64,000 nt of DNA from Clostridia bacterium (GTDB lineage: Bacteria > Bacillota > Clostridia > Monoglobales > Firm-18): NCBI GenBank assembly GCA_045545235.1, contig JAZQAN010000017.1:1200-65199 (forward strand). Reading direction: 5' to 3'. Of the stretch, positions 1-56,752 are shown one piece after another. Made by a program: the position numbers and the translations under genes. Under the pieces are notes generated by a model. The model was not told the DNA's origin. It saw only the letters and a list, made by a program, of their open reading frames with translations, and searched no databases. Position 1 is the first letter of the stretch; every line of letters begins with the position of its first letter.

Positions 1-40
1 CAAATTTTTTGCCACAGCCAGTGGCGGATTGGAGAGAATT

Positions 41-1420
41 ATGTTAAATCAGGAAAAAACTATGGAAAAAATCGTATCCTTATGTAAGGGAAGAGGCTTT
101 GTTTACCCGGGCTCTGAAATTTACGGAGGCCTTGCAAACACATGGGATTACGGTCCACTTGGTGTTGAACTTAAAAACAACGTAAAAAAAGCATGGTGGA
201 AAAAATTCGTTCAGGAATCACAGTACAACGTCGGTCTTGACTCTGCTATACTTATGAACCCTACAACTTGGGTTGCATCAGGCCATGTAGGCGGTTTTTC
301 AGACCCTCTTATCGACTGTAAGGAATGTAAGACACGTCATCGTGCTGATAAACTTATTGAAGATTTTGACGGTACAGTAGCAGATGGATGGACAAACGAA
401 CAGATGCTTGACTACATTAAGACAAACAACATCGTATGCCCTGACTGCGGCAAGCTAAACTTTACAGATATCAGAAAATTCAACCTTATGTTCAAAACAT
501 TCCAGGGTGTTACAGAAGATAGCTCAAGTGAAATTTACCTAAGACCTGAAACTGCTCAGGGTATTTTCGTAAACTTCAAAAATATTCAGCGTACAAGCCG
601 TAAGAAAGTTCCTTTCGGTGTTGCACAGGTTGGTAAATCATTCCGTAACGAAATTACACCGGGTAACTTCACATTCCGTACAAGAGAATTTGAACAGATG
701 GAACTTGAATTCTTCTGCGAACCGGGTACAGACCTTGAATGGTTTGAATATTGGAGAGGTTTCTGCAGAGACTGGTTGCTTTCACTTAATATTAAAGAAG
801 AAAACCTTAGACTTCGTGACCACTCACCTGAAGAACTAGCTTTCTATTCAAAAGCTACAACAGACTTTGAATTTATGTTCCCATTTGGTTGGGGTGAACT
901 TTGGGGTATTGCTGACAGAACAGATTATGACCTTTCTCAGCACGCAAAAACATCAGGTGAAACAATGGAATACATTGACCCTGTTGATACAAACAAGAGA
1001 TATATTCCTTACGTTGTAGAACCATCATTGGGTGCAGACCGTGTTACACTTGCATTCCTTTGCGAAGCTTATGATGAAGAAGTAGTAGGAGAAAACGACA
1101 CACGTGTTGTAATGCATTTCCACCCTGCACTTGCTCCAATTAAGGTTGCAGTTCTTCCTCTTTCAAAGAAGCTTTCTGAACAGGCTACAGAAATTTATCA
1201 GAAGCTTACAAAGAAATTCATGTGTGAATATGACGAAGCAGGCTCAATTGGTAAAAGATACAGAAGACAGGATGAAATCGGTACTCCTCTTTGCGTAACT
1301 GTTGACTTTGATACTGAAACAGACAACAGCGTAACAGTTCGTGACAGAGATACAATGGAACAGATAAGACTTCCAATCGACGAACTTGAAGCATATATCG
1401 AAAAATATATAGAATTCTAA
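41..1420 (+). CDS. glyQS: glycine--tRNA ligase (alpha2, GlyQS type)
   Basis: [38 protein letters not shown] and anticodon-binding [15 protein letters not shown] motifs. ATG at 41 follows GGAGAG. Confidence 0.97.
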
Positions 1421-42866: not shown

Positions 42867-44918
42867 TTAATTCTGTACTTTATCTTTTGCATCTTCAAGA
42901 CTTATACCAAACATAATCTGAAGCAAATTATCAGCATCTTCTTCGCCAAGCTCTGTTACAAGTTTGGAATAAAATGTTGTTCTCTCATCCTCAGTCATAT
43001 CATGATGATATATTTCAGTAGCAGGTCCGATCTCATCACCGTAGTTATCCAAAATATATTCTCCGTCATAGATGAGTTTACCTTCTTCAGCATCTGCCAA
43101 TACCAAATCCATAACCGCTATCGCAACGTCAATAATATCCTGTTCATATCCTTCAAAACGAATTTCAATTATTTTATCGTACATAGTAGTCATAGTGGCT
43201 ACAGCTTCATCCTGCTTTGACTGATCAAATTCAATCCATTTCGCATACAAAGTAAGATCTTTAGATACCGCTGATTCAAACTTATAAGGTATCATAAATT
43301 CACTGTCTTTATACCACCCCATAAAGTAATATCCGGGCCATTCTCCATGGTCAGGCTGGTCAACAGCACTACCTGCTTCAACAGTTACAGCCTCAATATA
43401 TTCTCCACCATTTGTTTCAAATGATACAGTATAAACTCGTGTCCACTTTGCATAAAGTGTCAGATGCTTTACAACCGGAGTACTAAAGTCATATATTGTT
43501 CTGAAATTACTTTCCTTGTACCAACCATCAAATCGGTAGCCGTCCTTAAAAGGTGCTTCAGGTTCATCTACGCAACTTCCGGATTCAACTGAAACTTTAG
43601 GAACTGAACTTCCACCATTTGACATAAAGTTTACGTTGTAAGTTTTTACTGTAGGTGTAGTTGGTGTATCACTACCACCCGGTGTATCACCACCAGGTTC
43701 TTCATTCTTTATCCATTTAGCATATAATGTTACATTGGATGTTATTTTTGTATTAAAATCAAATTTATTAGTAAGGGCATTATCTGAATACCAACCGTCA
43801 AAAGTATATCCATCTCTTGTAGGATCGGCAGGTTTTGTAACAGTTTTACCTTTTTCAACCGATGCAGATGCAACCGAATTTCCACCATTTGGAATAAAGT
43901 TTACTGTATACTTGGTAACTGTAGTTCCACCACTACTGCCTGAACCACCGGTGCCGCCTCCGCCACCGCCGCCTCCGCCGCCACCACCGGCAGAAGCTTT
44001 TGTCCATTTAGCATAAAGTGTTATATTTGCAATGATTTTTGAATTGAAATCAAATACGGTTTTTAAACTATTGTCAGAATACCACCCATTAAATGTATAT
44101 CCTGTTCTTGTAGGATTAGCAGGTTTTGCAACAGTTTTTCCACTTTCAACAGTTACAGGTGAAATAGAACTTCCTTCATTCGAATTAAAAGTTACTGTGT
44201 ATTTTACAATTTCTTCTTTTGTCACATCGTCGGGCTTTGCAACAACAAATTTAGCTATTGCACTTACAAGTTCACCTCTTGTAATGTTTTGAGTTGCTCT
44301 GAACTTTCCACCTGCTTCAAGTGGAATTATTCTGTTTGCAACAACCTTATTAACATAAGGAACTGCCCATTCAGAAACAGTATCAGTAATTTTTTCAGTC
44401 ATAGTAAGGTCATACAAATCCATAATCCTTGTTATAACAGCACATGTCTGTTCTCTTGTAAGGAAGTCATTACCCTTAAATGTTCCGTTTGCATGGCCTG
44501 TTATATATCCTGCTTTTTTTGCAATTAAAACATAATTGTAAAACCAATCTTCCTTTTTTACATCAGTGAAAGCTGTTGTATCAGCTTCTGTGTAATTAAA
44601 AGCAAGGTTTATAACCTTACAAAGTTCCGCACGTGTAATTGGGTTATTCGGTCTGAATGTACCATCAGCATAACCATTTAAAACACCGGCATTAACAAGC
44701 TTGTAAATATCCTTACCTACAGCAGAATCTTCTTTTATATCAGAAAAAACTATTGTTGGTTTAGTTTCTTCAGGCTTAGTTTCTTCAGGCTTCTCTTCCG
44801 TTGGCAATTCCTGTGGTGCAAGCTCATTTGATGCGGAACTTCTTATTTCATCTGCATTAACCATCATACAAGAAAAAACAAGTGTCATAATTATAAGTAA
44901 TGAAATAATTTTTTTCAT
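42867..44918 (-). CDS. SLH-domain surface protein with 4 InlB-B/Flg_new repeats, poly-Gly linker and acidic helical C-terminus
   Basis: Signal peptide; SLH motifs ITRAE, LTREQ, ITRGE; four YTVxF...GYxFxGWY...TLYAKW repeats. Confidence 0.88.
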   Translation of the reverse strand: MKKIISLLIIMTLVFSCMMVNADEIRSSASNELAPQELPTEEKPEETKPEETKPTIVFSDIKEDSAVGKDIYKLVNAGVLNGYADGTFRPNNPITRAELCKVINLAFNYTEADTTAFTDVKKEDWFYNYVLIAKKAGYITGHANGTFKGNDFLTREQTCAVITRIMDLYDLTMTEKITDTVSEWAVPYVNKVVANRIIPLEAGGKFRATQNITRGELVSAIAKFVVAKPDDVTKEEIVKYTVTFNSNEGSSISPVTVESGKTVAKPANPTRTGYTFNGWYSDNSLKTVFDFNSKIIANITLYAKWTKASAGGGGGGGGGGGGTGGSGSSGGTTVTKYTVNFIPNGGNSVASASVEKGKTVTKPADPTRDGYTFDGWYSDNALTNKFDFNTKITSNVTLYAKWIKNEEPGGDTPGGSDTPTTPTVKTYNVNFMSNGGSSVPKVSVESGSCVDEPEAPFKDGYRFDGWYKESNFRTIYDFSTPVVKHLTLYAKWTRVYTVSFETNGGEYIEAVTVEAGSAVDQPDHGEWPGYYFMGWYKDSEFMIPYKFESAVSKDLTLYAKWIEFDQSKQDEAVATMTTMYDKIIEIRFEGYEQDIIDVAIAVMDLVLADAEEGKLIYDGEYILDNYGDEIGPATEIYHHDMTEDERTTFYSKLVTELGEEDADNLLQIMFGISLEDAKDKVQN

Positions 44919-44944
44919 AAAATCACCCTCCTTTGTTATTTGGT

Positions 44945-44982
44945 AAAATTGGAACACCCCACAAGGGAGATGTTCCAATTTT
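44945..44982 (-). terminator. intergenic stem-loop between the two SLH genes
   Basis: AAAATTGGAACA...TGTTCCAATTTT inverted repeat. Confidence 0.7.
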
Positions 44983-44986
44983 TTTG

Positions 44987-47900
44987 TTATGCGTCTGTCA
45001 AAACTCTCTTGAACAATACCTTGTAATCATTAACTTCAAATTCGAAGGTGTTATCATCAATCTTAGTATAATATTCACCGTCAAGTTTGCCGTCAAGCTT
45101 ATCTTCAATCTTGTCTTCCACCTTGTTTTCAAGATCTTCAATAGCTTCCTGACTAAGAATTAAATCAAAGTATTCATCTGTTTTAAGGTTAAGTGTTCTT
45201 ACAAATATTTCATATACTTTATCGCGAACCTTATCATAGTCAACGTCTGTGTAATCCTTATTGAAGAAATCACTTCCCTTGTACTTATCAATTAGTCCCT
45301 TAACAAGTTCAGGATATTTTTCCACAATTGCTTTTTCAACTGCAGAAATTTTATCATCAACCTTTTCGTTAACCTTTGGAATTTCGCCTTCCATTACATA
45401 AAGGTCAATCTTATCAGCAATTATATTTACGTACTTGAGAATAAGTTCTTCATATTTTTCCGTAACTTCAATATATTTTTCTTCGCTGATATTGTTATAG
45501 TACCAAAGTATTGCATCATCACCAAGAACATAAATCTTGTACATCAAATCATAATAGTAATCAAGATCATAAATCTTGTAACCTGTTGTATCACTTGGTT
45601 TAGGGTTAGCTGAACCCTGTACCCAAATCTCAGGATCAAGAAGCTTCATAAGCTCCTGAAGATAAATATTTTCTGCATAGTAGAAATTATCGCCTATTTT
45701 ATCATCCACAGGGCCTTCAACAATCTTTTTATAGCTTTCGTAAAGCGGGATATAAACATCAGCAATAATATTTACAACAGGTGTAATACCGCAGTCAATA
45801 TATCCTACTTCACCTGCAATAGCATCTGCTATAGCTGTGTCAATCTGAGCGATCAGATTATTCATTGCATAATCATAAAGTTCAATTAGTTTTTCTTCGG
45901 GATAAATTTCAAATACTTTTTCAAGCTTTTCGGGAACTTTTGAACCAAAGATTGTTTCATAGTTATAATCTTCCAAAAGAACCTTCTTTAATCCTTCTGC
46001 AACGAATACTGTATCTGCATGAACTTCAAACTGTTCATCATTAATTAACTGATATACAAGTTTGTCAAGTTCATCTTTGTAAACATCATTGATAATTTCA
46101 TCAACCAATACATCACGCTCATCAGGATGCTTGCCAAGGTAGTCAATTGCATAATCTGCAAGATGTGAAATCTCATCTTCGTCCTTAGCTTCAAGAAGAT
46201 ATGTTATTGCTTCTTCAATAATCATATCACGTGTAGCACTTGTAGAACCGGTATTTGAAAGCTCTGCAATTACCATGTCGATAATGAATTCCTTCGGTGT
46301 AGCAGGCAATGTATAGCTTTCAAAACCTGTTACCTCTTTAACCAATGTAATCAAATAAGATTCATCATCAAGCTTTTCTTCAACCTTGCCCATTATGAAA
46401 CCGTCTTTATCCTGAGGATTCTTAGCCAATTCCGCATCTGTGCAACCTGTAATTGCCTTTATTATATCATCGCCGTTGACACCGTTCATTTCATCAATAA
46501 CAGCATCTTTTATAGTCTGCTTGTATGCATTTGTCTTAGCAAGCTCAATTACCTTGTCATACATTGGTGAGCTTGGTTCTTCAAGCTTATCTACAATAGT
46601 GTCAACCATAGTATCTCTGTAATCAACCTTTGCTTCTGCAAATACTGTATTGAAGAATACATCGTTTGTTTCAAGCTTGGAAACAACTGAATCAATAATA
46701 AATGACTTATAGCCTGCATTTTCTGCATCTGTAATTGCAGTTTCAAAGCTTGATTTGTTATTTGTGATTTCATCCTTTAATGTATTAATAGCAGCTGCTC
46801 TGTCAGGTACGATTGAAGGAGCATAACCTGTCAAAACTTCAAACAAAGCATCATTTACAGCAAGTTCTACGCCTACTGCTTCAGCAACCATTGCTCTGTA
46901 GTTAAAGTCGTCTGCCACCATGGCAATAACTTCATTGTACAAACTGTCTTCTGTTTCTAACAATGTCTTTATTGTAGCAATAATAGTAGCTTTTTCATTA
47001 TCAACCGCATATGTCAACACTTCGTCATACAAAGCATTGCTACTATCTGACAACATACTTTCTACTGTTGCAACAATTAAATTCTTCTGACTTTCTTTAA
47101 TACCATCAATAGTTGAATTAAAGTTATCTGTCAATTCTTTTTTAGCCATTGCAATGATTAAGTCTTTTGTAGTTGTTGCATCAGTATAATCAACACCGAT
47201 TACTTCTTCAACCAACTGTTCAAACAACTCATCATTTCCGGTTAGCTGCAAAATTATAAAATCAATAACAAATGTCTTTGTATCACTTGGCAATGTTGCA
47301 AGTTCATAACCTGTAACTTCTTTAAATGTTTCAGGATCGTTTAGCACTTCATGGCACAAATCTCTGATAATATCAAGTGTTTCAGTGCTGATTTCATCTT
47401 CTTCAAAGATATGATTGATTGTAGATTCCATCAAATCATGTACTTTCTTCTTTTCATCAGGATTATCGGAATTTGCAACTGCTATAATATATTCTACAAA
47501 CGCATCATGAAGAAGTTCATTATTACCGCTCGCAAACATTCCCTTTGCATTATCTACAATGAACTTTTCAACATTTTCTTCACCAAGAATAGTTGCAAAC
47601 TTAACCATGTAGCTAAGCATCATTATATTATCATCGGTATCAAGAATTTTCTGAACTATGCCTTTTTCTCTTATCTTATCAAGATGATCAAGCTGATGCA
47701 AAGCCATAAGTGGTGCTTTTTTATAAACTATATCCTTTATAGAATCTATGAATCTTGTTTCCGGTTCGTAGTAAGCATAGAAATCAAATGCCATACCATC
47801 AGCCATTGTTACAACTGCGGAGAATTTGTTGATTTTAAGATGAACATCTGTGTTTTTAGTAACTATCGTTTCGCTTGTAAACTCTTCCCATTTATCAGAA

Positions 47901-50900
47901 TCCGCATTGTACCACCAACCGTATTTTATAACGTGTTCGAATGGTTCTGCTGCATATACATCTGCTACGTTTCCATCCTTAACATAACCTGTATATGAAG
48001 CACTGTCTGTAGGGAACTGAGATTCTGCAACAGTAGTGTTCTTTTCAACATCTACACTTGTAATCTTACTTCCTCTGTCAAAGAAAGTTACAGTCACATA
48101 ATCTATAAGCTCTGTCCACAAAGCAACCAAATCAGTATCTTTTGTAAATGTCGCTTTACCATAAAGTGTATTTGTTCCGTCTGACCATCCGTCAAATTTA
48201 AATCCTTCTTTTGAGACGCTAGGCAAGGAAATTTCTACACCGTAGTATGCTGTAACATCAGCAGGATTTGTAACACCTTCACCTGCATCAAAGCTTATTG
48301 TGTAAGCCTCTCTGTCATAGTAAACTTTAAGTACGAGCCCGCTTGATGCTGTACCTGAAAGTACGCTGTTTGCAGTGTTGATATCAAAACCTGTCTTTTC
48401 ATCAGGAGTAACACTTACTGTTGTACCTGATGTTGCATTAAATACTTCTGTTGTTACAGAATATGTTGTAAGATCAGTATTCTGTGTATAGTATTCAACC
48501 TTATAAGCTATCTGTCCCGGTGTATAATTCCATTCAGCATTCAATTTAGTGTCAGCTGTAAATGTTGCTGTGTTTACATATACATAAGTTCCGTCTGACC
48601 AACCTGCAAATGTATAGTCATCTTTAGCTACATTAGGCAAAGTAACCTCTACACCGTAGTACGCCGTAATATCAGCAGGATTTGTAACACCTTCACCTGC
48701 ATCAAAGCTTATTGTATAAGCTTCTCTGTCATAGTAAACTTTTAGTACAAGTGGATTATCTCTGTCCACTTTACCGGAAAGGATACTTTCTACTGAGTTA
48801 ACATCAAAACCTGTCTTGTCTTCAGGTGTTACAGTAACTGTAGATCCAACTGCACCGTTAAATGGTTGTGATGTCATTGTATATGTTACAAGGTCTGTGT
48901 TCTGAACATAATACTCAACTGTATAAGTAATCTGTCCGGGAACATATTCCCATATAGCAGTAAGTGTTGCATCACTTTCAAATGCTGCATTTGCACCTAC
49001 ACTGTATACATTTGTTCCGTCTGTCCAACCCTTGAACTCATAATCAAGCTTTGAAAGTACAGGCAAATCTACAGGACGATTGTAGTAAACCACAATATCT
49101 TTAGGATTTGCTAATCCCTGACCTGCAACGAACTTGATTGTGTATGAAGCTCTGTCATAGTAAACTTCAAGCACAAGATTGCCGTTTTCATTTACAACAC
49201 CTGAAAGAACGCTGTTTACAGTATCAGTTACAAAACCGTAATCAGGATTTGGTGTTACAGATACTTCCACACCATACTTTCCGCTTTTTGTTTCATACCT
49301 TTCTGCATAACCGCTTCCATCAACAGCTTCAGTGTAATATATTACTTTATAATCGTATACTTTTCTGTTGTAATAAACTTTAAGTTCCAAGGTACCTTCT
49401 GCATTTACATAACCACCAAGGATACTGTTTGCACCAAGTTCAAAACCTGTAGGAACTACAGTGCTTGCAGACACATATTCGCCAAATTTTCCTGAAAGTG
49501 TTTCAGTATTTTCAGTGTATGTACCATCTGTATTTTCTGTATAATAGGTGACTTTGTAGTTATATGATGCTATATCGTAGTATACTTTAAGTACCAATGT
49601 ACCTGATGTAGAAACTGTGCCTGAAAGTATATTTCCGCTATGTGATGCATTGTATGTATAACCTGGAATTACTCTTGTTGTATCAGCAGTTACAGTTACG
49701 CCAACTGTACCCTTAAACTGCTTTTCATCATATTTTGTATAAGGTTCAGAACCTGATGCATTTTCTATATAATATTCTACTCTATATATTGCTTCTGTAG
49801 GAGCAAGTTTTGTCCATTCAGCATTTAATTCTACAGGACCTGTAACAGTATAACTGCCGTCAACCTCTGTGCCGTTTACAAACCAACCGTCAAAAACATA
49901 ACCGTCTCTTTCGATTGAAGGAAGTTTTGTTGAAATACTCTGACCGTATGCAACTGTTACAGACGGGATAGTTCCTGTGTAACCGTTACCGTCAAATGTA
50001 ATTGTATAAACTTCTCTGTCGTAGTAAACTGCAAGCACAAGGCTGTTGTTTTCGTTTACATTTCCCGAAAGTACGCTCTTTGTTGTGTTTACATCAAAGC
50101 CTGTTTTGTCAGCAGGTGTAACACTTACAGTCTTACCGAATTTTTCACTATAAGAAGTTGATGAAATTTCATTATACACTGTAAGGTCATTAACATTCTG
50201 TTCGTAAATCTTAACTGTATAAGTGTACGCCTTTCTTACATAATATACTTTAAGTACAAGTTTCCCTGTTGCAGGAACTGTGCCTGAAACAACGCTTGCG
50301 CTACCAAGTTCAAAACCTGCCGGTACGCTGTAATCAACATCTACCTCAGTACCATATTTTGCACTCTTTGTATCTGTTTTTTCTTCATAACTGCCATCAT
50401 TTTTTTCTGTACGGTAGATTATATCATATTCCAATACTTTTCTGTCAAAATAAACTTTAAGTTTTGGATTTCCGTTACCATCAACAGTACCACTTAGTGT
50501 ACTTTTTGAACTATTAAGTTCAAATCCGGTAGGAATTACAGGTACTACAGAAACTTCTTTACCATACACATCGTTTAATACCTGTGTGTTTTCTTTATAT
50601 GTACCATCTGTGTTTTCTGTATAATATGTAACTGAATAGTCATACTTTTTAATATTATAGTAAACCTTCAAAACAAGACTTCCGTCTGCTGAAACTTTAC
50701 CCGAAATTTTGTTTCCTGCATTTGAGTTATCATATGTATAATGTTCAATAACTCTTGTTGTATCTGCATTTACAGTTTCACCAATTGTACCCTTAAACTG
50801 TTCTTCATCATATTTTATATATTTTTCAAGGTTTGACGAATCCTGTACATAATATTCTACCTTGTATTTTGCTTCTGTAGGAGCAAGTTCTGTCCATGCT

Positions 50901-52516
50901 GCCTTTACTTCAACAGGACCTTCCAAAACATAGTTGCCGTCTACTTCTGTACCGTCTACAAACCAACCATCAAACAAGTAACCATCTCTATCAATTACAG
51001 GTAACAACGCAGAAATTTTCTGACCGTATACAGCAGTTACCGGAGGGATGGTGCCTGTGTATCCGTTACCGTTAAAAGTGATTGTATAAACTTCTCTGTC
51101 AAAATATACTTGCAACAAAAGATTGTTGTTTGCAGCAATTTTACCTGTTTTTATACTCTTTGCGTCATTGATTTTAAAGCCTTTATACACTTTATCATCA
51201 GCAGTTACATCTGCTTCAAACAACGCTTTTCTTATATACGTATCTTCTATAACTTCGTCGTACTTTGCAGGATTATCTATATTCTGCTGATAATACTTGA
51301 CTGTATAGTCATATTGATTTCTTGTGTAATAAACCTTAAGTACAAGTTCCTTATTTGCTTCAGCCTTACCGCTTGTTTTATTATTTGCATTTGTCGGGTC
51401 ATATGTAAAACCTTCAATAACCTTAATGTCTGCGTTTACATCTGTACCAACATCAACCTTTTCGCTAGGTGTTGAAGAATGCAGTTCATAACCGGATAAA
51501 TCCAGTTTCTGCACATAATAATCAACTTTATAAGTGGTAGTAGTTGGCTTGGTTGTGCCACCTGAAGAGAATGAACCTTTACTCTCTTTGAAAGTAGCAT
51601 GAGTATTAAGTACAATTCCGTCAAACACTTTTTCATTTCTGTAATTATCAAAGTGAACAACAGTATTATAGTTGTTAACAACAACCATTTCACCGACTTT
51701 TGTCTGTACCAATTCAACTCTGTTGGCACCACGAACTAAAAGCCGGCCCTTAATGTTAACCTTTTCAAGACGTATTGTACCCTTTGCATTACCGTCACCA
51801 ATTACAAGGTCGCCTTCTACATTCATATTTTTTAACGTAACGTCACCAACATTAATCATTGTGTTTCTTATGTTGGTTTTATCATTATATGTATCAGCTT
51901 TGGAATAATAATTTCTGAATATATTATGCATAAGCTGAGCAAATTCCGCACGTGTTATATTGCTTTTAGGATTAACACGACCTGTAGTATCACCGTTTAC
52001 ATATGACTTTTCAGTCATTATGCTCAAGTAATCCTTTGCCCAACTGCTTATGTCGTCTGCATCCTTGAATTTATTCAGCGAAGAGTAGTCAGAGCTTTTC
52101 AAAACCAAAGCTCTCGCTACAACTGCAAATACTTCTTCTCTGGTGATATAATCATCCGGACGCATATTTCCGCTTCCGTCACCTTCGAATACTCTCATTT
52201 GCACTGCTTTGGAAAATTCATCATAATACCAGGCAGATGGTTTAAGATCGTTAAACCCACTTATATCCGCCTTTATAGTCGCACCAAAAGCACGTACCAT
52301 AAGCGCAGCCATTTCTGCACGGGTAAGATTATCTTCGCTATGAATTTTTCCGTCTTCCTTTCCACGGAGCAAACCATTGCTTATTGCGGCATCAATCGCT
52401 TCATTAGCCCAATACCCTTTATCCGGATATTCGTAAGCGTTTACGGTTAATGCCATTGAAGACATCATAGCAACCATCACCATAATGGATACTATTCTCA
52501 TAACCAATTTTCTCAT
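44987..52516 (-). CDS. giant (~2500 aa) SLH surface protein with repeat stalk and acidic helical C-terminal region
   Basis: Signal peptide; 3 SLH (LTRAE, ITREE, ITRAE); beta-rich domain; 11 YxVxYY...LxLKVYY repeats; 5-6 InlB-B-type repeats; ~900-aa helical tail. Start at 52516 or 52525. Confidence 0.87.
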   Translation of the reverse strand: MRKLVMRIVSIMVMVAMMSSMALTVNAYEYPDKGYWANEAIDAAISNGLLRGKEDGKIHSEDNLTRAEMAALMVRAFGATIKADISGFNDLKPSAWYYDEFSKAVQMRVFEGDGSGNMRPDDYITREEVFAVVARALVLKSSDYSSLNKFKDADDISSWAKDYLSIMTEKSYVNGDTTGRVNPKSNITRAEFAQLMHNIFRNYYSKADTYNDKTNIRNTMINVGDVTLKNMNVEGDLVIGDGNAKGTIRLEKVNIKGRLLVRGANRVELVQTKVGEMVVVNNYNTVVHFDNYRNEKVFDGIVLNTHATFKESKGSFSSGGTTKPTTTTYKVDYYVQKLDLSGYELHSSTPSEKVDVGTDVNADIKVIEGFTYDPTNANNKTSGKAEANKELVLKVYYTRNQYDYTVKYYQQNIDNPAKYDEVIEDTYIRKALFEADVTADDKVYKGFKINDAKSIKTGKIAANNNLLLQVYFDREVYTITFNGNGYTGTIPPVTAVYGQKISALLPVIDRDGYLFDGWFVDGTEVDGNYVLEGPVEVKAAWTELAPTEAKYKVEYYVQDSSNLEKYIKYDEEQFKGTIGETVNADTTRVIEHYTYDNSNAGNKISGKVSADGSLVLKVYYNIKKYDYSVTYYTENTDGTYKENTQVLNDVYGKEVSVVPVIPTGFELNSSKSTLSGTVDGNGNPKLKVYFDRKVLEYDIIYRTEKNDGSYEEKTDTKSAKYGTEVDVDYSVPAGFELGSASVVSGTVPATGKLVLKVYYVRKAYTYTVKIYEQNVNDLTVYNEISSTSYSEKFGKTVSVTPADKTGFDVNTTKSVLSGNVNENNSLVLAVYYDREVYTITFDGNGYTGTIPSVTVAYGQSISTKLPSIERDGYVFDGWFVNGTEVDGSYTVTGPVELNAEWTKLAPTEAIYRVEYYIENASGSEPYTKYDEKQFKGTVGVTVTADTTRVIPGYTYNASHSGNILSGTVSTSGTLVLKVYYDIASYNYKVTYYTENTDGTYTENTETLSGKFGEYVSASTVVPTGFELGANSILGGYVNAEGTLELKVYYNRKVYDYKVIYYTEAVDGSGYAERYETKSGKYGVEVSVTPNPDYGFVTDTVNSVLSGVVNENGNLVLEVYYDRASYTIKFVAGQGLANPKDIVVYYNRPVDLPVLSKLDYEFKGWTDGTNVYSVGANAAFESDATLTAIWEYVPGQITYTVEYYVQNTDLVTYTMTSQPFNGAVGSTVTVTPEDKTGFDVNSVESILSGKVDRDNPLVLKVYYDREAYTISFDAGEGVTNPADITAYYGVEVTLPNVAKDDYTFAGWSDGTYVYVNTATFTADTKLNAEWNYTPGQIAYKVEYYTQNTDLTTYSVTTEVFNATSGTTVSVTPDEKTGFDINTANSVLSGTASSGLVLKVYYDREAYTISFDAGEGVTNPADVTAYYGVEISLPSVSKEGFKFDGWSDGTNTLYGKATFTKDTDLVALWTELIDYVTVTFFDRGSKITSVDVEKNTTVAESQFPTDSASYTGYVKDGNVADVYAAEPFEHVIKYGWWYNADSDKWEEFTSETIVTKNTDVHLKINKFSAVVTMADGMAFDFYAYYEPETRFIDSIKDIVYKKAPLMALHQLDHLDKIREKGIVQKILDTDDNIMMLSYMVKFATILGEENVEKFIVDNAKGMFASGNNELLHDAFVEYIIAVANSDNPDEKKKVHDLMESTINHIFEEDEISTETLDIIRDLCHEVLNDPETFKEVTGYELATLPSDTKTFVIDFIILQLTGNDELFEQLVEEVIGVDYTDATTTKDLIIAMAKKELTDNFNSTIDGIKESQKNLIVATVESMLSDSSNALYDEVLTYAVDNEKATIIATIKTLLETEDSLYNEVIAMVADDFNYRAMVAEAVGVELAVNDALFEVLTGYAPSIVPDRAAAINTLKDEITNNKSSFETAITDAENAGYKSFIIDSVVSKLETNDVFFNTVFAEAKVDYRDTMVDTIVDKLEEPSSPMYDKVIELAKTNAYKQTIKDAVIDEMNGVNGDDIIKAITGCTDAELAKNPQDKDGFIMGKVEEKLDDESYLITLVKEVTGFESYTLPATPKEFIIDMVIAELSNTGSTSATRDMIIEEAITYLLEAKDEDEISHLADYAIDYLGKHPDERDVLVDEIINDVYKDELDKLVYQLINDEQFEVHADTVFVAEGLKKVLLEDYNYETIFGSKVPEKLEKVFEIYPEEKLIELYDYAMNNLIAQIDTAIADAIAGEVGYIDCGITPVVNIIADVYIPLYESYKKIVEGPVDDKIGDNFYYAENIYLQELMKLLDPEIWVQGSANPKPSDTTGYKIYDLDYYYDLMYKIYVLGDDAILWYYNNISEEKYIEVTEKYEELILKYVNIIADKIDLYVMEGEIPKVNEKVDDKISAVEKAIVEKYPELVKGLIDKYKGSDFFNKDYTDVDYDKVRDKVYEIFVRTLNLKTDEYFDLILSQEAIEDLENKVEDKIEDKLDGKLDGEYYTKIDDNTFEFEVNDYKVLFKRVLTDA

Positions 52517-52546
52517 GCCATTCATCCCTCCAATTTATGTTAAAAA

Positions 52547-53551
52547 CTAAAATTGACTCATATAATAAGATATTGCCTTTGATTTTTCGTTTTCATACGA
52601 CGCTTTTATTTCATTCACAATAGAAACACTCTGATTCGTTTCTTTAAGAAGAATTTTTACCTTGCTTAAAATTTCATTAACCTTTACATCACATGCATCT
52701 TCAAGCGCCAATGCCTTTTCATATGCTCTTTTTCCAACCTTTGTCTTAGCACTTGACGGAATATTTTCCGGACCGCCATATTCTTCACAAAAAATCCTAT
52801 ACTGTGAATTTACCCAATCCTCAATAGCAGAAAGATCGGCAGAAAACTGACTTTTCAAAACATACAATTCACCTATCAACCGTGAAATTTCTTCGTTTTT
52901 TTCCTTATATTCCGGAGTTTGTTCTTCTTTTTTCTCATCATTCACCTGAGGTTGTTGTTCATCCTTAGTCTGTGTTGTCTTTTTACTATTATCATCCTTA
53001 GACTGATTTATCTTTTTGCCATCGTTATTCTTAGACTGAGATACTTTTTCATTAGTACCCTCGTTTTTTGTTTGGTTTGTTTTTTTATTTTCTTCAGAAG
53101 ATTGTTCTGTTTTATTCTTATCAGTCGTTATAGCTTCACCATCTTCTGTCACTTCATATTCTTTACTACTATTGTTAGTTTCAGTTTTTTCAGAAGACAC
53201 CATTTCATTATTTCCTTCAGTTGAACCCGACTCGCTATCTGAAGAAGTTTCCTCAGTGCGACCCAAAATAATATTAATCGCATCTTCTTCAGAAATTTCT
53301 CCCTTGCTGAGTTTATCGCTTTCTTCTTCAGTAAGTGGGCGTATACCATCTATACCAATATCTTTTATGGTTTCTTTAAGTTTTTCTTCATCTCTTGCAT
53401 ATTTCTGTTCAAGCTCGTCGCTTCTGCCTGTCAAAACATAATACATTGTGTGTATTTTGTTCCAATTTTTCACAACAAAAACACTTGCAACAGAAATAAT
53501 TATTGCCACTATAACTAAAACAACCAATAAAATTATACTCTTCTTTTTCAT
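52547..53551 (-). CDS. membrane-anchored hypothetical protein with low-complexity linker and helical C-terminal domain
   Basis: KKK plus TM N-terminus, E/K/N/S/T-rich middle region, C-terminal ELYVLKSQF...CDVKV...YENEK...YY. Confidence 0.8.
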   Translation of the reverse strand: MKKKSIILLVVLVIVAIIISVASVFVVKNWNKIHTMYYVLTGRSDELEQKYARDEEKLKETIKDIGIDGIRPLTEEESDKLSKGEISEEDAINIILGRTEETSSDSESGSTEGNNEMVSSEKTETNNSSKEYEVTEDGEAITTDKNKTEQSSEENKKTNQTKNEGTNEKVSQSKNNDGKKINQSKDDNSKKTTQTKDEQQPQVNDEKKEEQTPEYKEKNEEISRLIGELYVLKSQFSADLSAIEDWVNSQYRIFCEEYGGPENIPSSAKTKVGKRAYEKALALEDACDVKVNEILSKVKILLKETNQSVSIVNEIKASYENEKSKAISYYMSQF

Positions 53552-53597
53552 ATCATACCTCTTGAACAACAAACCCAATAAAAACGTTATTGAGATT

Positions 53598-54854
53598 TTA
53601 TTTTTTTGTTGAGATTTTTTTCTTATCTGCAGCTGTCATTCTCGGTAATTTGCCTTCAACAATACTTTCTTCCGTTATGGTAACCTTTTGGATTTTCTGA
53701 TTGGACGGAATTTCAAACATTATATCTGTCATAGTTTCTTCCAATATAGAACGCAAACCTCTTGCACCGGTCTTTAAATCTATAGCCTTTTTAGCTACAG
53801 CCTTAAGTGCATCTTCAGTAAATTCCAATTCTACCTCATCAAGACCTAACAGTTTTTTGTATTGTTTTACAAGGGCATTTTTGGGTTTCGTAAGAATTGA
53901 AATCAGTGCTTCTTCATCTAATGTTTCCAAAGTAGCAACAACCGGAACACGACCTATAAATTCAGGAATTATACCAAATTTAATCAAATCCTGCGGTCTT
54001 ACTTCCTTGAAAATTTCACCAACATCCTTATTTTTAGCACTTTCTACAGTAGCACCAAATCCCAATGATTTCTTACCAATACGGCTTCCTATTATTTTTT
54101 CAAGCCCATCAAAAGCCCCACCGCATATAAATAAAATATTTGTAGTATCTATTGGTATAAGCTCCTGCTGAGGGTGTTTTCTTCCTCCCTGAGGTGGAAC
54201 CGATGCAACAGTACCTTCTAAAATTTTAAGAAGTGCCTGCTGTACTCCTTCACCACTTACATCGCGTGTAATAGATACATTTTCTGCCTTACGGGTAATT
54301 TTATCAATTTCATCAATATAAATAATACCTTTTTCAGCTCTTTTTATATCATAATCTGCCGCCTGAATAAGCTTTAGCAGAATGTTTTCAACGTCTTCAC
54401 CTACATAACCGGCTTCAGTAAGTGCTGTAGCATCGGCAATCGCAAAAGGAACATCAAGTATTTTCGCAAGAGTCTGTGCCAGCAATGTTTTTCCCGAGCC
54501 TGTAGGGCCAAGCATCAAAATATTGCTTTTTTGTATTTCTACACCATCTTCATCAATGCCATTTGCATTAATTCTTTTATAATGATTATAAACCGCTACG
54601 GCAAGCTGTTTTTTTGCATAGTCCTGCCCTATTATATAATCGTCAAGTATTTCCTTTATTTCCTTAGGTTTTGGAACATTCAAAAATTTAGGTTCTTCAC
54701 TTACAATTTTATCATCAAATTCGTTTTCTATAATGCTTATACAAGCTTTGATACAATCACTGCATATAGCCACGTCAGGCCCAACAATCAACTGATTGCT
54801 GGGCTTGCCGCAAAACGAACATCTTGATAAACTATTTTCATTCATATTTAACAA
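53598..54854 (-). CDS. clpX: ATP-dependent Clp protease ATP-binding subunit
   Basis: CSFC...[33 protein letters not shown] and LGF loop motifs. Confidence 0.98.
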
Positions 54855-54871
54855 ATGCCTCCGAGTAATAT

Positions 54872-55456
54872 TTATGGTCTGCTTGTAATAACCTTATCTA
54901 TCAGTCCATACTGTGCAGCTTCATCTGCTGACATAAAGTTATCTCTTTCAGTATCACGGATGATTTCATCAAGAGGTCTTCCTGTATTTTTAGCAAGAAT
55001 TTCATTTAAATTCTGCTTTATTCTGATAATTCTGTCTGCATGGATTTTTATATCAGTAGCCTGTCCCTGCATTCCTCCAAGAGGCTGATGAATCATTATT
55101 TCACTATTTGGAAGTGCATATCTCTTACCTTTTGCACCTGATGACAACAAAAATGCACCCATACTTGCCGCCATACCCATACAAATTGTTGAAACATCAC
55201 ATTTAATATACTGCATAGTATCATAAATTGCCATACCTGCTGTTATGCTGCCACCGGGGCTGTTAATGTAAAGGCTGATATCCTTATCTGGGTCTTCAGC
55301 TTCCAGAAACAACAACTGTGCAACAACCAACCCTGCACTTACATCATTAACCTCTTCGCCCAAAATGATGATTCTGTCCTTTAACAGTCGGGAATATATG
55401 TCGTATGCCCTTTCTCCTCTGTTTGTCTGTTCAATTACTGTTGGTACCAAGCTCAT
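54872..55456 (-). CDS. clpP: ATP-dependent Clp protease proteolytic subunit
   Basis: [20 protein letters not shown] and MIHQP motifs. Confidence 0.99.
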
Positions 55457-55480
55457 TATGATTCCCCCTTGCGGTATAAT

Positions 55481-56752
55481 TTACTTAGACTGCTCAACTA
55501 TCATTTCAACAACTTTTCTGTTGATGATTCCGTCTTTGATATCGTCTTCGTGGATGAATTTCTTAATATCTTCTGCCTTCATCTGATAGTTTTCTGCAAT
55601 CTTGTTGTATTCTGCTTCTATATCTTCTGCAGATGCTTCAATCTTCTCAGCCTTTGCAATTGCTTCTAAAGTCAAAGAAACTTTAACCTGCTTTGTAGCA
55701 TGTTCTTTAAACTGTTCTTTGAATGAATCAGCTGTCATACCTGTCATCTGGAAATACTGCTGAAGATTAATGCCCTGACCCTGAAGTCTTGCATCGTAAT
55801 CTCTAAGCATATTTTCAAGCTGATGGTTAATCATACATTCAGGAATTTCAACTTCTGTCTTTTCAGCAACAGCTTCAATAGCTTTATCTTCTGTTTCTGC
55901 CTTTGCTCTGTCAGCATTGTTCTTTTCAAGTTTAGCCTTTGTATCATTCTTAAGTTCTTCAAATGTATCAAATTCAGAAACATCTTTTGCAAACTCATCA
56001 TCAAGTGCAGGAAGTTCCTTCTTTTTAATAGCATTGATTTTAACTTTAAATTCTACTGCTGCACCCTTAAGGTCTTCAGCATGATAATCTTCAGGGAAAG
56101 TCACATTTACAGTAACATCATCACCCTTGTTTGCACCGATAAGCTGATCTTCAAAGCCAGGAATAAACTGACCTGAACCTATTGTAAGTTCAAAATCTTT
56201 ACCTTCGCCACCTGCAAAAGCTACTCCATCCTTAAAGCCTTCAAAATCTATAACAGCGATATCGTCTTTTTCAACAGCTCTGTCTTCAACTTCAACAACT
56301 CTTGAGTTTCTTTCCTGAAGTCTGGAAATTTCTGCATCTACATCTTCATCGCTTACATTATACTCAACTTTTTCAACTTTAATACCCTTGTATTTACCAA
56401 GTTTCACTTCAGGCTTTACAGTAACCTTAACTGAAAGTGTTGTATTTTCATCCTTTTTAATTTCTGATACATCAGTAATTTCAGGCTGATCTACTACTTC
56501 AAGTTCAAGTTCTTTAACTGCTTCTTCATACACTTCGCCGAATACAAAGTTAAGCGCATCTTCATAAAAAATTTCTGCACCGTACATTTTTTCAACCATA
56601 GCACGAGGCGCTTTACCTTTTCTGAAGCCAGGAACATTTATGTACTTTACATTTTTGTTATAAGACTTTTTCATTCCTTCTTCAAACTTTTCCGGAGTAA
56701 TATCTAATTTAAACTCCGCTACGCTATTTTCAATCTTTTCCAATTTTGCCAT
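55481..56752 (-). CDS. tig: trigger factor
   Basis: PGFRKGKAP and FIPGFEDQL motifs; upstream of clpP. Confidence 0.98.
   Translation of the reverse strand: MAKLEKIENSVAEFKLDITPEKFEEGMKKSYNKNVKYINVPGFRKGKAPRAMVEKMYGAEIFYEDALNFVFGEVYEEAVKELELEVVDQPEITDVSEIKKDENTTLSVKVTVKPEVKLGKYKGIKVEKVEYNVSDEDVDAEISRLQERNSRVVEVEDRAVEKDDIAVIDFEGFKDGVAFAGGEGKDFELTIGSGQFIPGFEDQLIGANKGDDVTVNVTFPEDYHAEDLKGAAVEFKVKINAIKKKELPALDDEFAKDVSEFDTFEELKNDTKAKLEKNNADRAKAETEDKAIEAVAEKTEVEIPECMINHQLENMLRDYDARLQGQGINLQQYFQMTGMTADSFKEQFKEHATKQVKVSLTLEAIAKAEKIEASAEDIEAEYNKIAENYQMKAEDIKKFIHEDDIKDGIINRKVVEMIVEQSK

What the first reader, a model, noticed from the sequence alone, without database searches (positions are those of the whole stretch)
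46250..47340. Mirror-ordered (out-and-back) helical repeats in the C-terminus of the giant SLH protein
Seen in sequence: about 12 degenerate 28-35-aa units of the form [KR]xx[IV]Ixx[VI]xxxL...D.L[FY]..V, whose best matches pair symmetrically instead of in tandem. KEVTGYELATLPSDTKTFVIDFII pairs with KEVTGFESYTLPATPKEFIIDMVI; EEVIGVD with KAITGCT; LSDSSNALYDEV with LEEPSSPMYDKV; LETEDSLYNEV with LETNDVFFNTV. The centre is EVLTGYAPS (about 46815-46845). Inference: an a-b-c-d|d'-c'-b'-a' order suggests a chain that runs out and folds back on itself, giving a long intertwined helical hairpin or tube grown by nested duplication and inserted into a core formed by the flanking segments. I recognise no named surface-protein domain like this.
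Basis: partly seen in the sequence, partly recalled or inferred. Interest (0 to 1): 0.78.

Follow-up and report, generated by a model that had tools for sequence, protein, structure and literature searches.

The report
Two-armed helical-repeat stalk in wall protein
The tail of a giant cell-wall-anchored surface protein carries a variable-length array of short helical units that most likely runs out and folds back on itself, because relatives gain or lose units in matched pairs on either side of the array's midpoint.

Summary
The motifs and about 11 helix-turn-helix units are real (residues 1735-2103 of a 2512-aa SLH / InlB-B-repeat protein, window 44987-52525, minus strand). Only the outermost pair A/A' is strongly alike. 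The next best pair is adjacent (units 3-4). Mirror enrichment is not significant (p 0.07 for all units, 0.23 for inner units), and a 25-unit relative shows none (p 0.32).

- The array sits at one fixed site of a conserved domain. The two flanks are adjacent in 23 of 42 relatives and 280-967 aa apart in 19.
- Two independent comparisons show paired indels symmetric about the array midpoint: one unit per arm in P0004, and about four units per arm in P0006 versus P0007.
- Long loops lie palindromically, before units 1, 2, 6, 10 and 11.
- AlphaFold models (pLDDT 82-85) match small solved domains only across sequence-distant segments nested around the midpoint.

I could not read coordinates, so arm-to-arm contacts are inferred. 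No Pfam family, solved structure or known fold matches. Growth by nested duplication is not supported; similarity is highest within each arm. Function is unknown; I propose a length-set rigid finger on the distal head of an adhesin-like fibril.

The parts
44987..52525 (-). Whole gene: 2512-aa surface protein with a signal-peptide-like N-terminus, 3 SLH domains, a long beta-repeat shaft with InlB B-repeats, and a helical C-terminal region
   Evidence: ORF list, translation, Pfam SLH E 3.3e-28 in 3 stretches and Flg_new E 1.5e-22 in 5 stretches
51926..52435 (-). SLH wall-anchoring region, about residues 31-200; the limits are approximate
   Evidence: Pfam SLH, 3 stretches, best at residues 152-196. 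The outer limits are read from the sequence.
48086..51538 (-). Shaft of repeated beta-rich modules, about residues 330-1480, including 5 Flg_new repeats
   Evidence: Pfam Flg_new. Recurring 'Y.V.YY ... L.LKVYY' modules are read. This part differs strongly in the same-genus orthologue.
47324..47848 (-). N-flank of the conserved head domain, residues 1560-1734
   Evidence: Found by phmmer in 42 relatives and adjacent to the C-flank in 23 of them. In AlphaFold model 1, model positions 107-169 match small helical bundles together with positions 538-590.
46832..47323 (-).
   Evidence: Unit table, helix hairpins, one-unit insertion in P0004 after residue 1862
46712..46831 (-).
   Evidence: It lies at the array midpoint, with 161 aa to one side and 167 aa to the other. 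A 9-residue loop precedes it. Its 17-aa motif finds the central unit as best match in 3 of 3 other arrays.
46217..46711 (-).
   Evidence: Unit table, helix hairpins, one-unit insertion in P0004 after residue 1972
44990..46216 (-). C-flank of the conserved head domain, residues 2104-2512, mixed helical and beta, with many conserved Tyr and an Asp-Asp pair
   Evidence: This is the part shared by most of the 67 representatives. Nearly invariant columns are listed. There is no Pfam, PDB-sequence or Atlas match.

Best explanation
Residues 1735-2103 form an intramolecular two-armed stalk. Five helix-turn-helix units run outward, a distinctive central unit turns the chain, and five units run back, so that unit k lies beside unit 12-k. 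The stalk is an insertion at one fixed point of a conserved helical/beta head domain, whose two halves (1560-1734 and 2104-2512) close around its base. The head sits at the far end of a fibril that is anchored in the cell wall by N-terminal SLH domains.

Because the arms must stay in register, the stalk changes length only by matched gains or losses in both arms. The units themselves multiply by ordinary local tandem duplication within an arm.

Shown: the repeat, the fixed insertion site, the variable length, and the mirrored indels. Inferred: the arm-to-arm contacts, since I could not read the coordinates. More weakly inferred: the stalk is a rigid finger of lineage-specific length that holds its tip at a set distance from the head, for adhesion or partner recognition.
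For: (1) Fixed insertion site. N-flank and C-flank were both found in 42 of the 72 proteins then held. Their projected distance is 71 aa or less in 23 proteins and 280-967 aa in 19 (anchor distances of 132-145 against 481-1069). P0005 has a single unit where the query has eleven.

(2) Paired indels.
- P0004 (64% identical in the array) has exactly two insertions of 10 residues or more relative to query residues 1650-2150: 33 aa after residue 1862 and 32 aa after 1972, plus a further 2-aa gap after residue 1908 beside the tip. Their midpoint is 1917. The array midpoint is 1903-1919. Each insertion is the second unit from the central unit.
- P0006 compared with P0007 has 153 extra aa in one arm (1482-1642) and 157 in the other (1804-1971). 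Relative to the centre at 1722 these are -240..-80 and +82..+249. The array midpoint is 1717-1732.

(3) Balanced arms in four length classes: 161/167, 194/201, 313/293 and 468/458 aa. P0073 gives 467/458.

(4) The query's central 17-aa motif has its best match at the central unit of P0007 (31 against next 22), of P0006 (25 against 20) and of P0004 (15 against 12).

(5) Loops of 9 or more residues precede units 1, 2, 6, 10 and 11.

(6) AlphaFold models have mean pLDDT 81.5 (pTM 0.55) and 84.9 (pTM 0.70). Small solved domains align to them across sequence-distant segments. Examples are 83 residues at rmsd 2.8 spanning model-1 positions 107..583, and 53 residues at rmsd 3.7 spanning model-2 positions 24..364. 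Eleven wide-span rows have midpoints at residues 1892-1931.

(7) Identity profiles in two other clades are U-shaped, high at both ends and low in the middle.
Against: - No coordinates, contact map or PAE could be read. The contacts are inferred from the first and last aligned residue of weak structural matches (Z 2-6), and such ranges can include stray fragments.
- The five AlphaFold models of the array alone differ widely in confidence (84.9, 74.7, 71.2, 68.9, 66.0).
- There are only two independent paired-indel events and two clades with alignable arrays.
- Similarity of the central unit across clades is weak. With longer probes of 38-50 aa, the central unit of P0006 or P0007 is not the best hit. 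The 17-aa motif was chosen after I had seen the sequences.
- Unit counts by HMM are incomplete, so arm balance is given in residues and not in units.
- In the P0004 comparison the insertions lie 38 aa before and 72 aa after the tip glycine. They are symmetric only to within about half a unit.
Confidence: 0.72

Rival explanations
1. An ordinary linear or gently curved alpha-solenoid spacer. The eleven units stack in tandem and push an N-terminal subdomain and a C-terminal subdomain apart. The number of units is free to vary.
For: Tandem helix-turn-helix units of 26-40 aa are typical of solenoids. The strongest inner similarity is between adjacent units (3-4, Z 7.9). The weak whole-model Foldseek rows are HEAT-type solenoids such as transportin and importin-beta, with E 0.013-0.5 and TM 0.06-0.08. 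Linear helical-repeat rods have been described in giant surface proteins of Apilactobacillus kunkeei (PMC12863079, passages read).
Against: This reading gives no reason for indels to come in equal-sized pairs symmetric about the midpoint. It also gives no reason for balanced arms over a threefold length range. The flanks are adjacent in 23 of 42 relatives and match single small bundles together in model 1. No solenoid matched either model with TM above 0.14.
Confidence: 0.13
2. The array returns to its origin as a closed ring, horseshoe or compact multi-bundle mass, not as two paired arms.
For: A fixed insertion site only requires that the two ends meet. The middle of the array (residues 1857-1969) resembles compact six-helix death-fold bundles, with Z 5-6.2, rmsd 3-4 and about 80 aligned residues.
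Against: Array length ranges from about 370 to about 970 aa, which a closed ring of fixed geometry would not tolerate. Mirrored indels imply register between positions equidistant from the centre. The Z values lie below the tool's stated noise level for helical models.
Confidence: 0.08
3. One reading: the stalk grew by nested duplication from the centre, so mirror partners are each other's closest relatives.
For: A/A' is the most similar pair (Z 11.3). Pairs 3-8 and 4-7 (Z 5.6 and 5.9) exceed 3-7 and 4-8 (2.0 and 3.7).
Against: Mirror enrichment is not significant (p 0.07 and 0.23). In P0006, mirror pairs average 25.4 against 24.5 for all between-arm pairs (p 0.32). In that protein 18 of 24 units have their best partner in the same arm, often two units away. 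The outermost pair is the most similar, whereas growth from the centre predicts the opposite. A/A' is better explained as the two ends of the single ancestral unit that P0005 still has.
Confidence: 0.07

Closest known systems
Cytoplasmic signalling domain of methyl-accepting chemoreceptors (antiparallel helical hairpin whose length classes are counted in paired heptads)
   Same: An out-and-back helical stalk with a distinctive tip. Its length varies between lineages by matched additions to both arms. [quoted passage not shown] That the underlying class analysis is Alexander and Zhulin 2007 is recalled, not read.
   Different: Chemoreceptor arms are long continuous coiled-coil helices that grow by 7-residue steps, lie in the cytoplasm and form dimers. 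Here the step is a 26-40-aa helix-turn-helix unit, the protein is extracellular, and there is no sequence relationship: Pfam reports no family other than SLH and Flg_new at E up to 0.1. Chemoreceptor 2ch7_B appears only as a weak Foldseek row (E 0.34, TM 0.08-0.10).
SMC / MukB / Rad50-type arms (head formed by the N- and C-terminal segments, antiparallel intramolecular coiled coil, hinge at the tip)
   Same: The topology matches: the two ends of the chain form one globular head, and the middle runs out and back with a special element at the turn. This description is recalled general knowledge.
   Different: Those are continuous coiled coils of hundreds of residues on an ATPase head. MukB and JetC chains appear only among non-significant rows (E 0.35-0.72).
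[quoted passage not shown]
   Same: Helical repeat arrays in very large extracellular proteins of Firmicutes, predicted by AlphaFold and variable between strains (passages read).
   Different: Those are described as linear, extended rods that make up most of the protein. Here the array is a short insertion within a terminal domain and appears to fold back. No sequence comparison with them was made.
Death-fold six-helix bundles (CARD, PYD, DD)
   Same: The middle of the array (residues 1857-1969) superposes on about 80 residues of several CARD and PYD domains, with Z 4.7-6.2 and rmsd 3.0-4.7.
   Different: The Z values are below the level the tool gives as common for helical models. Sequence identity is 1-11%. 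This is probably only a common six-helix arrangement.

Membership tests
SLH-domain cell-wall-anchored proteins | Tandem S-layer homology domains (Pfam PF00395) | tested here: met
   PF00395, E 3.3e-28, 3 stretches near the N-terminus
InlB B-repeat / Listeria-Bacteroides repeat proteins | Flg_new repeats (PF09479 / TIGR02543) | tested here: met
   PF09479, E 1.5e-22, 5 stretches. TIGR02543 scores 22 bits against a cutoff of 20.95. One source names relative P0004 'InlB B-repeat-containing protein'.
Chemoreceptor signalling domain (MCPsignal) | Sequence match to the family profile | tested here: not met
   The Pfam scan of the whole protein at E up to 0.1 reports only SLH and Flg_new.
Chemoreceptor signalling domain (MCPsignal) | Long continuous antiparallel helices with heptad periodicity | tested here: not met
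   The predicted helices in the array are 8-17 residues long and separated by turns.
Chemoreceptor-like or SMC-like behaviour (works like, not a member) | Length changes by matched indels in both arms about a central turn | tested here: met
   Two independent paired-indel events and balanced arms in four length classes
Known alpha-solenoid repeat families (TPR, HEAT, ARM and similar) | Profile match, or a clear structural match to a solved solenoid | tested here: inconclusive
   No Pfam repeat family matches. The best Foldseek rows are HEAT proteins at E 0.013-0.5 with TM 0.06-0.08. VIA-align lists none.
Two-armed (out-and-back) stalk as proposed here | Direct contacts between units k and 12-k | not testable with these tools
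   Model coordinates and PAE are not returned. Only the first and last aligned residues of structural matches are available.

The most novel reading that the evidence does not exclude
A previously undescribed architecture: a 'hairpin solenoid', in which an extracellular helical-repeat array folds back on itself. Its length is tuned over a threefold range (about 370 to about 970 aa) by compensated, in-register gains and losses of whole helix-turn-helix units in both arms. It would be the repeat-protein counterpart of the paired-heptad rule of chemoreceptors and of SMC arms. It would serve as a molecular ruler that presents a semi-conserved tip from the distal head of a wall-anchored adhesin.
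Probability: 0.45. Interest if true: 0.75.

Novelty: new variant of a known kind. Interest (0 to 1): 0.6.

Why it matters
If the fold-back is real, this is a natural case in which a repeat protein is under a pairing constraint. A unit added to one arm must be matched in the other arm. That gives a clean system for studying how tandem repeats expand under a structural register rule. It also offers a template for designing rods of adjustable length with both ends at the same place.

It also defines a rare, unannotated C-terminal head domain of giant SLH-anchored proteins of uncultured Clostridia. There are 67 cluster representatives among 1.84 billion proteins. The domain was found in 11 of 151 genomes of the order and in 15 of 399 sampled genomes of the class. 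Its ligand and role are unknown. For the biology of the organism it is probably one more adhesin-like fibril.

Tried and rejected
- Complex prediction of the base-proximal parts of the two arms (A2 positions 11-119 against 260-386, result). The verdict was 'no answer', score 0.00 against a mark of 0.32, with the partner's own fold uncertain.
- Foldseek against PDB for both models: no match at E 0.001 or below.
- VIA-align, wide search on both models and a second look on model 2: best Z 6.0, 6.2 and 3.5. All are below the level the tool calls common for helical models. No solenoid, chemoreceptor or SMC chain appeared with a useful score.
- PDB sequence search and ESM Atlas search of the C-flank: nothing.
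- Searches for more relatives with different array lengths:
  - The metagenome scan found none.
  - The scan with A2 gave 3 loci. One (L013) lies on a 113,783-base contig, the length and coordinate range of the contig that holds the G007 orthologue; I did not compare it further. Scoring showed the other two (L014, L015) to match P0010 and P0011 best.
  - A second homology search gave only P0073, an orthologue of P0006.
  - The same-genus orthologue G007 has no indel in the array.
- Forced global alignments between distant arrays were uninformative: about 30% identity and many scattered gaps. I dropped them.
- A tip HMM seeded from four sequences I picked by eye scores those four by construction. 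Longer unbiased probes did not rank the central unit first in P0006 or P0007. Only the 17-aa motif did.
- Counting units by HMM misses degenerate units, so I did not test an 'always odd' unit count.
- There are no DNA-level tandem repeats in the array, so the duplications are old.
- Earlier notes of this scan: none for this genome.
- Literature: a search for 'S-layer homology', 'InlB B-repeat' and 'helical repeat' (at least 2 of 3 terms) found 0 papers. A search for 'helical repeat', 'folds back', 'antiparallel', 'solenoid' and 'stalk' (at least 4 of 5 terms) found 7 papers, none describing this architecture as far as the listing and the passages of PMC12863079 show.
Full report
WHAT IS THERE. 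The finding lies in a single 2512-aa ORF on the minus strand (window 44987-52525). Residue i occupies window bases 52525-3i+1 to 52525-3(i-1). Pfam finds three SLH domains near the N-terminus (E 3.3e-28) and five Flg_new / InlB B-repeats (E 1.5e-22), and nothing else at E up to 0.1. NCBIfam finds only TIGR02543. The last ~950 residues are therefore unannotated.

THE REPEAT. Residues 1735-2103 can be cut into eleven units of 26-40 aa. The core of each unit reads roughly xxKxFIIDxVxxKLxxxDxLFxxV. A 23-position HMM built by iteration from a relative's unit finds 9 units in the query with i-Evalue below 0.1, two of them in the flanking core. It finds 23 in P0006, 14 in P0007, 12 in P0004, 2 in P0005 and 1 in P0009. 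AlphaFold predicts each unit as two helices of 8-17 residues. There is no DNA-level tandem repeat in the array, so the duplications are old.

IS THE SIMILARITY MIRRORED? Only in part.
- In a 15-residue dot plot, only the A/A' diagonal (offset 328, score 45) reaches the maximum of 30 shuffles (44). The one other diagonal above it is a low-complexity stretch at 2465.
- Unit-by-unit local alignment gives 1-11 (A/A') Z 11.3. The adjacent pair 3-4 follows at Z 7.9. Then come 1-7 (7.1), 1-5 (6.1), 4-7 (5.9), 7-8 (5.8), 3-8 (5.6) and 5-7 (5.2). Pair 2-10 scores 0.3.
- Random permutation of unit order reaches the observed mirror score in 7.3% of 20,000 trials, and in 22.6% when units 1 and 11 are left out.
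- In the 25-unit relative P0006, mean similarity is 27.9 and 29.3 within the arms and 24.5 between them. Mirror pairs average 25.4 (p 0.32). Best partners are mostly two units away in the same arm: a7-a9, a6-a8, b4-b6, b3-b5.

One palindromic feature is real: loops of 9 or more residues precede units 1, 2, 6, 10 and 11 (DSSP). By my own count, 10 of the 462 possible sets of five units are palindromic.

RELATIVES.
- A word-indexed search found 8 relatives among 7998 scored candidates.
- An exhaustive HMMER scan of 1.84 billion representatives found 67 at E 0.001 or below, of which 26 were at 1e-30 or below. Most match only query residues ~2080-2512.
- I searched the N-flank (1600-1734) and the C-flank (2104-2300) separately in the 72 proteins then held. 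Both were found in 42.
- In 23 of those 42 the projected distance between the flanks is 71 aa or less. Examples are P0005 at 39, and P0008 and P0009 at 22.
- In the other 19 the distance is 280-967 aa: the query clade 370, P0004 437, P0007 646, P0006 and P0012 966-967, and others 280-862. For weak partial flank hits these numbers are rough.

Reading P0005 against the query shows one unit where the query has eleven. That unit's first half resembles unit 1 and its second half continues as unit 11 does. This accounts for A/A' being the most similar pair. The array is therefore an insertion at one fixed point of a conserved domain, which means its two ends have to lie close together if the domain keeps its fold.

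PAIRED INDELS.
- The orthologues P0002, P0003 and P0010 have no indel in query residues 1650-2150. The same-genus genome G007 has none after residue 1525.
- P0004 has exactly two insertions of 10 residues or more: 33 aa after residue 1862 and 32 aa after 1972. It also has a 2-aa gap after residue 1908, beside the tip. Their midpoint is 1917. The array midpoint is 1903 by the first and last TG anchors and 1919 by the flanks. Read as units, each insertion is the second unit from central unit 6.
- P0006 and P0007 are independent of that pair and are 49% identical over the array. They differ by P0006-only blocks at 1482-1609 plus 1618-1642 (153 aa) in the first half, and at 1804-1846, 1853-1904 and 1910-1971 (157 aa) in the second half. 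Relative to the central glycine at 1722 these lie at -240..-80 and +82..+249. That is about four units in each arm, the third to sixth from the centre. The flanking alignment is strong on all four sides.
- Arm lengths measured from the first TG to the central G and from there to the last TG are 161/167 (query), 194/201 (P0004), 313/293 (P0007) and 468/458 (P0006). P0073, an orthologue of P0006, gives 467/458.

A linear solenoid gives no reason for them. My rough odds for such placement and size matching by chance are about 1 in 10 for the first event and about 1 in 100 for the second. These are estimates, not computed tests. There are only two events.

THE CENTRAL UNIT. A regular expression written after I had seen the sequences hits once each in P0001, P0002, P0006 and P0007, at the array midpoints. 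An HMM seeded from four hand-picked segments also scores P0012, P0073 and L014, which are orthologues of the seeds. Tests with less bias give mixed results:
- Probes of 38-50 aa do not rank the central unit of P0006 or P0007 first, because the recurrent TG..LP linker dominates.
- The P0007 central segment does find the query's centre as its best hit, but only narrowly (28 against 26).
- The 17-aa motif finds the central unit as best match in 3 of 3 other arrays, with 31 against 22, 25 against 20 and 15 against 12.

I therefore call the tip semi-conserved and hold this loosely. In two other clades the middle of the insert is the least conserved part. Identity between P0026 and P0028 is 57-77% and 50-70% at the two ends and 32-40% in the middle. 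P0021 and P0017 show a similar pattern.

STRUCTURE PREDICTION.
- Model 1 covers residues 1560-2512 with 46 alignment rows. Mean pLDDT is 81.5 and pTM 0.55.
- Model 2 covers residues 1725-2110 with 8 rows. Mean pLDDT is 84.9 and pTM 0.70, but the other four models score only 66-75.
- The tools do not return coordinates or PAE, and /data holds none.
- Foldseek against PDB finds nothing at E 0.001 or below for either model.
- VIA-align gives at best Z 6.0-6.2, below the level the tool calls common for helical models.

The aligned ranges do carry some information. Small compact chains align to segments far apart in sequence:
- 2au5_A: 83 residues at rmsd 2.8 over model-1 positions 107..583. Three more rows span 93-109..584-590. 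N-flank and C-flank helices are therefore modelled as one bundle.
- 6h4c_B: 53 residues at rmsd 3.7 over model-2 positions 24..364.
- Rows spanning 67..281, 72..304, 77..290 and 68..312.
- The midpoints of the eleven wide rows fall at residues 1892-1931.
- The middle of the array (1857-1969) resembles six-helix death-fold bundles, with Z 4.7-6.2 and about 80 residues aligned. I take this only as a sign that the tip is a compact bundle.

This nesting is what a folded-back stalk would give. It remains indirect, because a range reports only the first and last aligned residue.

MECHANISM.
- Shown: the insertion site, the variable length, the mirrored indels and the within-arm similarity.
- Inferred: two arms of stacked helix-turn-helix units pack side by side and antiparallel. 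A gain of units in one arm (by in-register unequal crossing-over, often of two or four units) is then kept only together with an equal gain opposite to it.
- More weakly inferred: function. The SLH domains fix the N-terminus in the wall. The beta-repeat shaft projects outward, and it evolves fast: the protein is 61% identical overall to the G007 orthologue, with many indels, while the C-flank is 92% identical. The head with its stalk is therefore the distal end. I propose a rigid finger of lineage-specific length for adhesion or partner recognition. The head's conserved Tyr-rich and Asp-Asp columns hint at a binding or catalytic site that I could not identify.

COMPARISON WITH KNOWN SYSTEMS.
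- It behaves like the chemoreceptor signalling hairpin, which is built of paired heptads in classes of 12-32 pairs (PMC6628036, passage read). It also behaves like SMC-type arms (recalled). It is not a member of either: there is no profile match and the helices are short, not continuous.
- Helical-repeat rods in giant surface proteins are known (PMC12863079, passages read), but those are described as linear.
- I found no description of a folded-back repeat array with paired unit indels in the two literature searches I ran. This is a limited search, and I saw no supplements.

CONTEXT. The gene is single-copy in its 2.69-Mb, 86%-complete assembly. Record titles of related contigs, and one source's name for P0004, say Clostridia bacterium MAG. 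The domain was found in 11 of 151 genomes of the order and in all 5 other genomes of the genus, and in 15 of 399 sampled genomes of the class. The neighbours are tig, clpP and clpX upstream, and downstream a second SLH/Flg_new protein followed by a PLD-type enzyme.

VERDICT. I rate it a new variant of a known kind, with interest 0.6.

Noticed in passing
window 42867-44978 (-): Immediately downstream lies a second, smaller wall protein of 703 aa with 3 SLH domains and 4 strong Flg_new repeats (E 6.4e-84). It lacks the helical head.
   Followed up: partly
window 52547-53578 (-): A 343-aa ORF ends 21 bases upstream of the giant gene. It has one N-terminal hydrophobic segment, a long Lys/Glu/Ser/Thr/Asn-rich low-complexity middle and a helical-looking C-terminus. 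No Pfam family matches. It may be co-transcribed with the giant gene.
   Followed up: partly
window 48086-51538 (-), residues ~330-1480: The shaft consists of recurring ~70-aa modules ('Y.V.YY ... L.LKVYY') that Pfam does not name, interleaved with Flg_new repeats. In the same-genus orthologue (G007, 2553 aa) this part has dozens of indels and an extra 71+10-aa module. The C-flank is 92% identical and the array has no indel.
   Followed up: partly
proteins P0026/P0028 and P0021/P0017 (inserts of 839-862 aa): In these more distant clades the insert at the same site keeps nearly the same length. Its identity profile is U-shaped: the ends are conserved and the middle is variable. Whether these inserts are also two-armed was not tested.
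   Followed up: partly
window 47351-47998 (+): A 215-aa ORF lies antisense inside the giant gene. It is probably a chance open frame in AT-rich coding sequence. I did not examine it.
   Followed up: no
window 53598-56752 (-): The housekeeping cluster of trigger factor, ClpP and ClpX lies directly upstream of the surface-protein genes on the same strand.
   Followed up: no
window 45081-45133: A 12-base tandem repeat of 4.4 copies encodes the KVEDKIEDKLDGKLDG stretch near the C-terminus. This is the strongest self-match in the dot plot.
   Followed up: no
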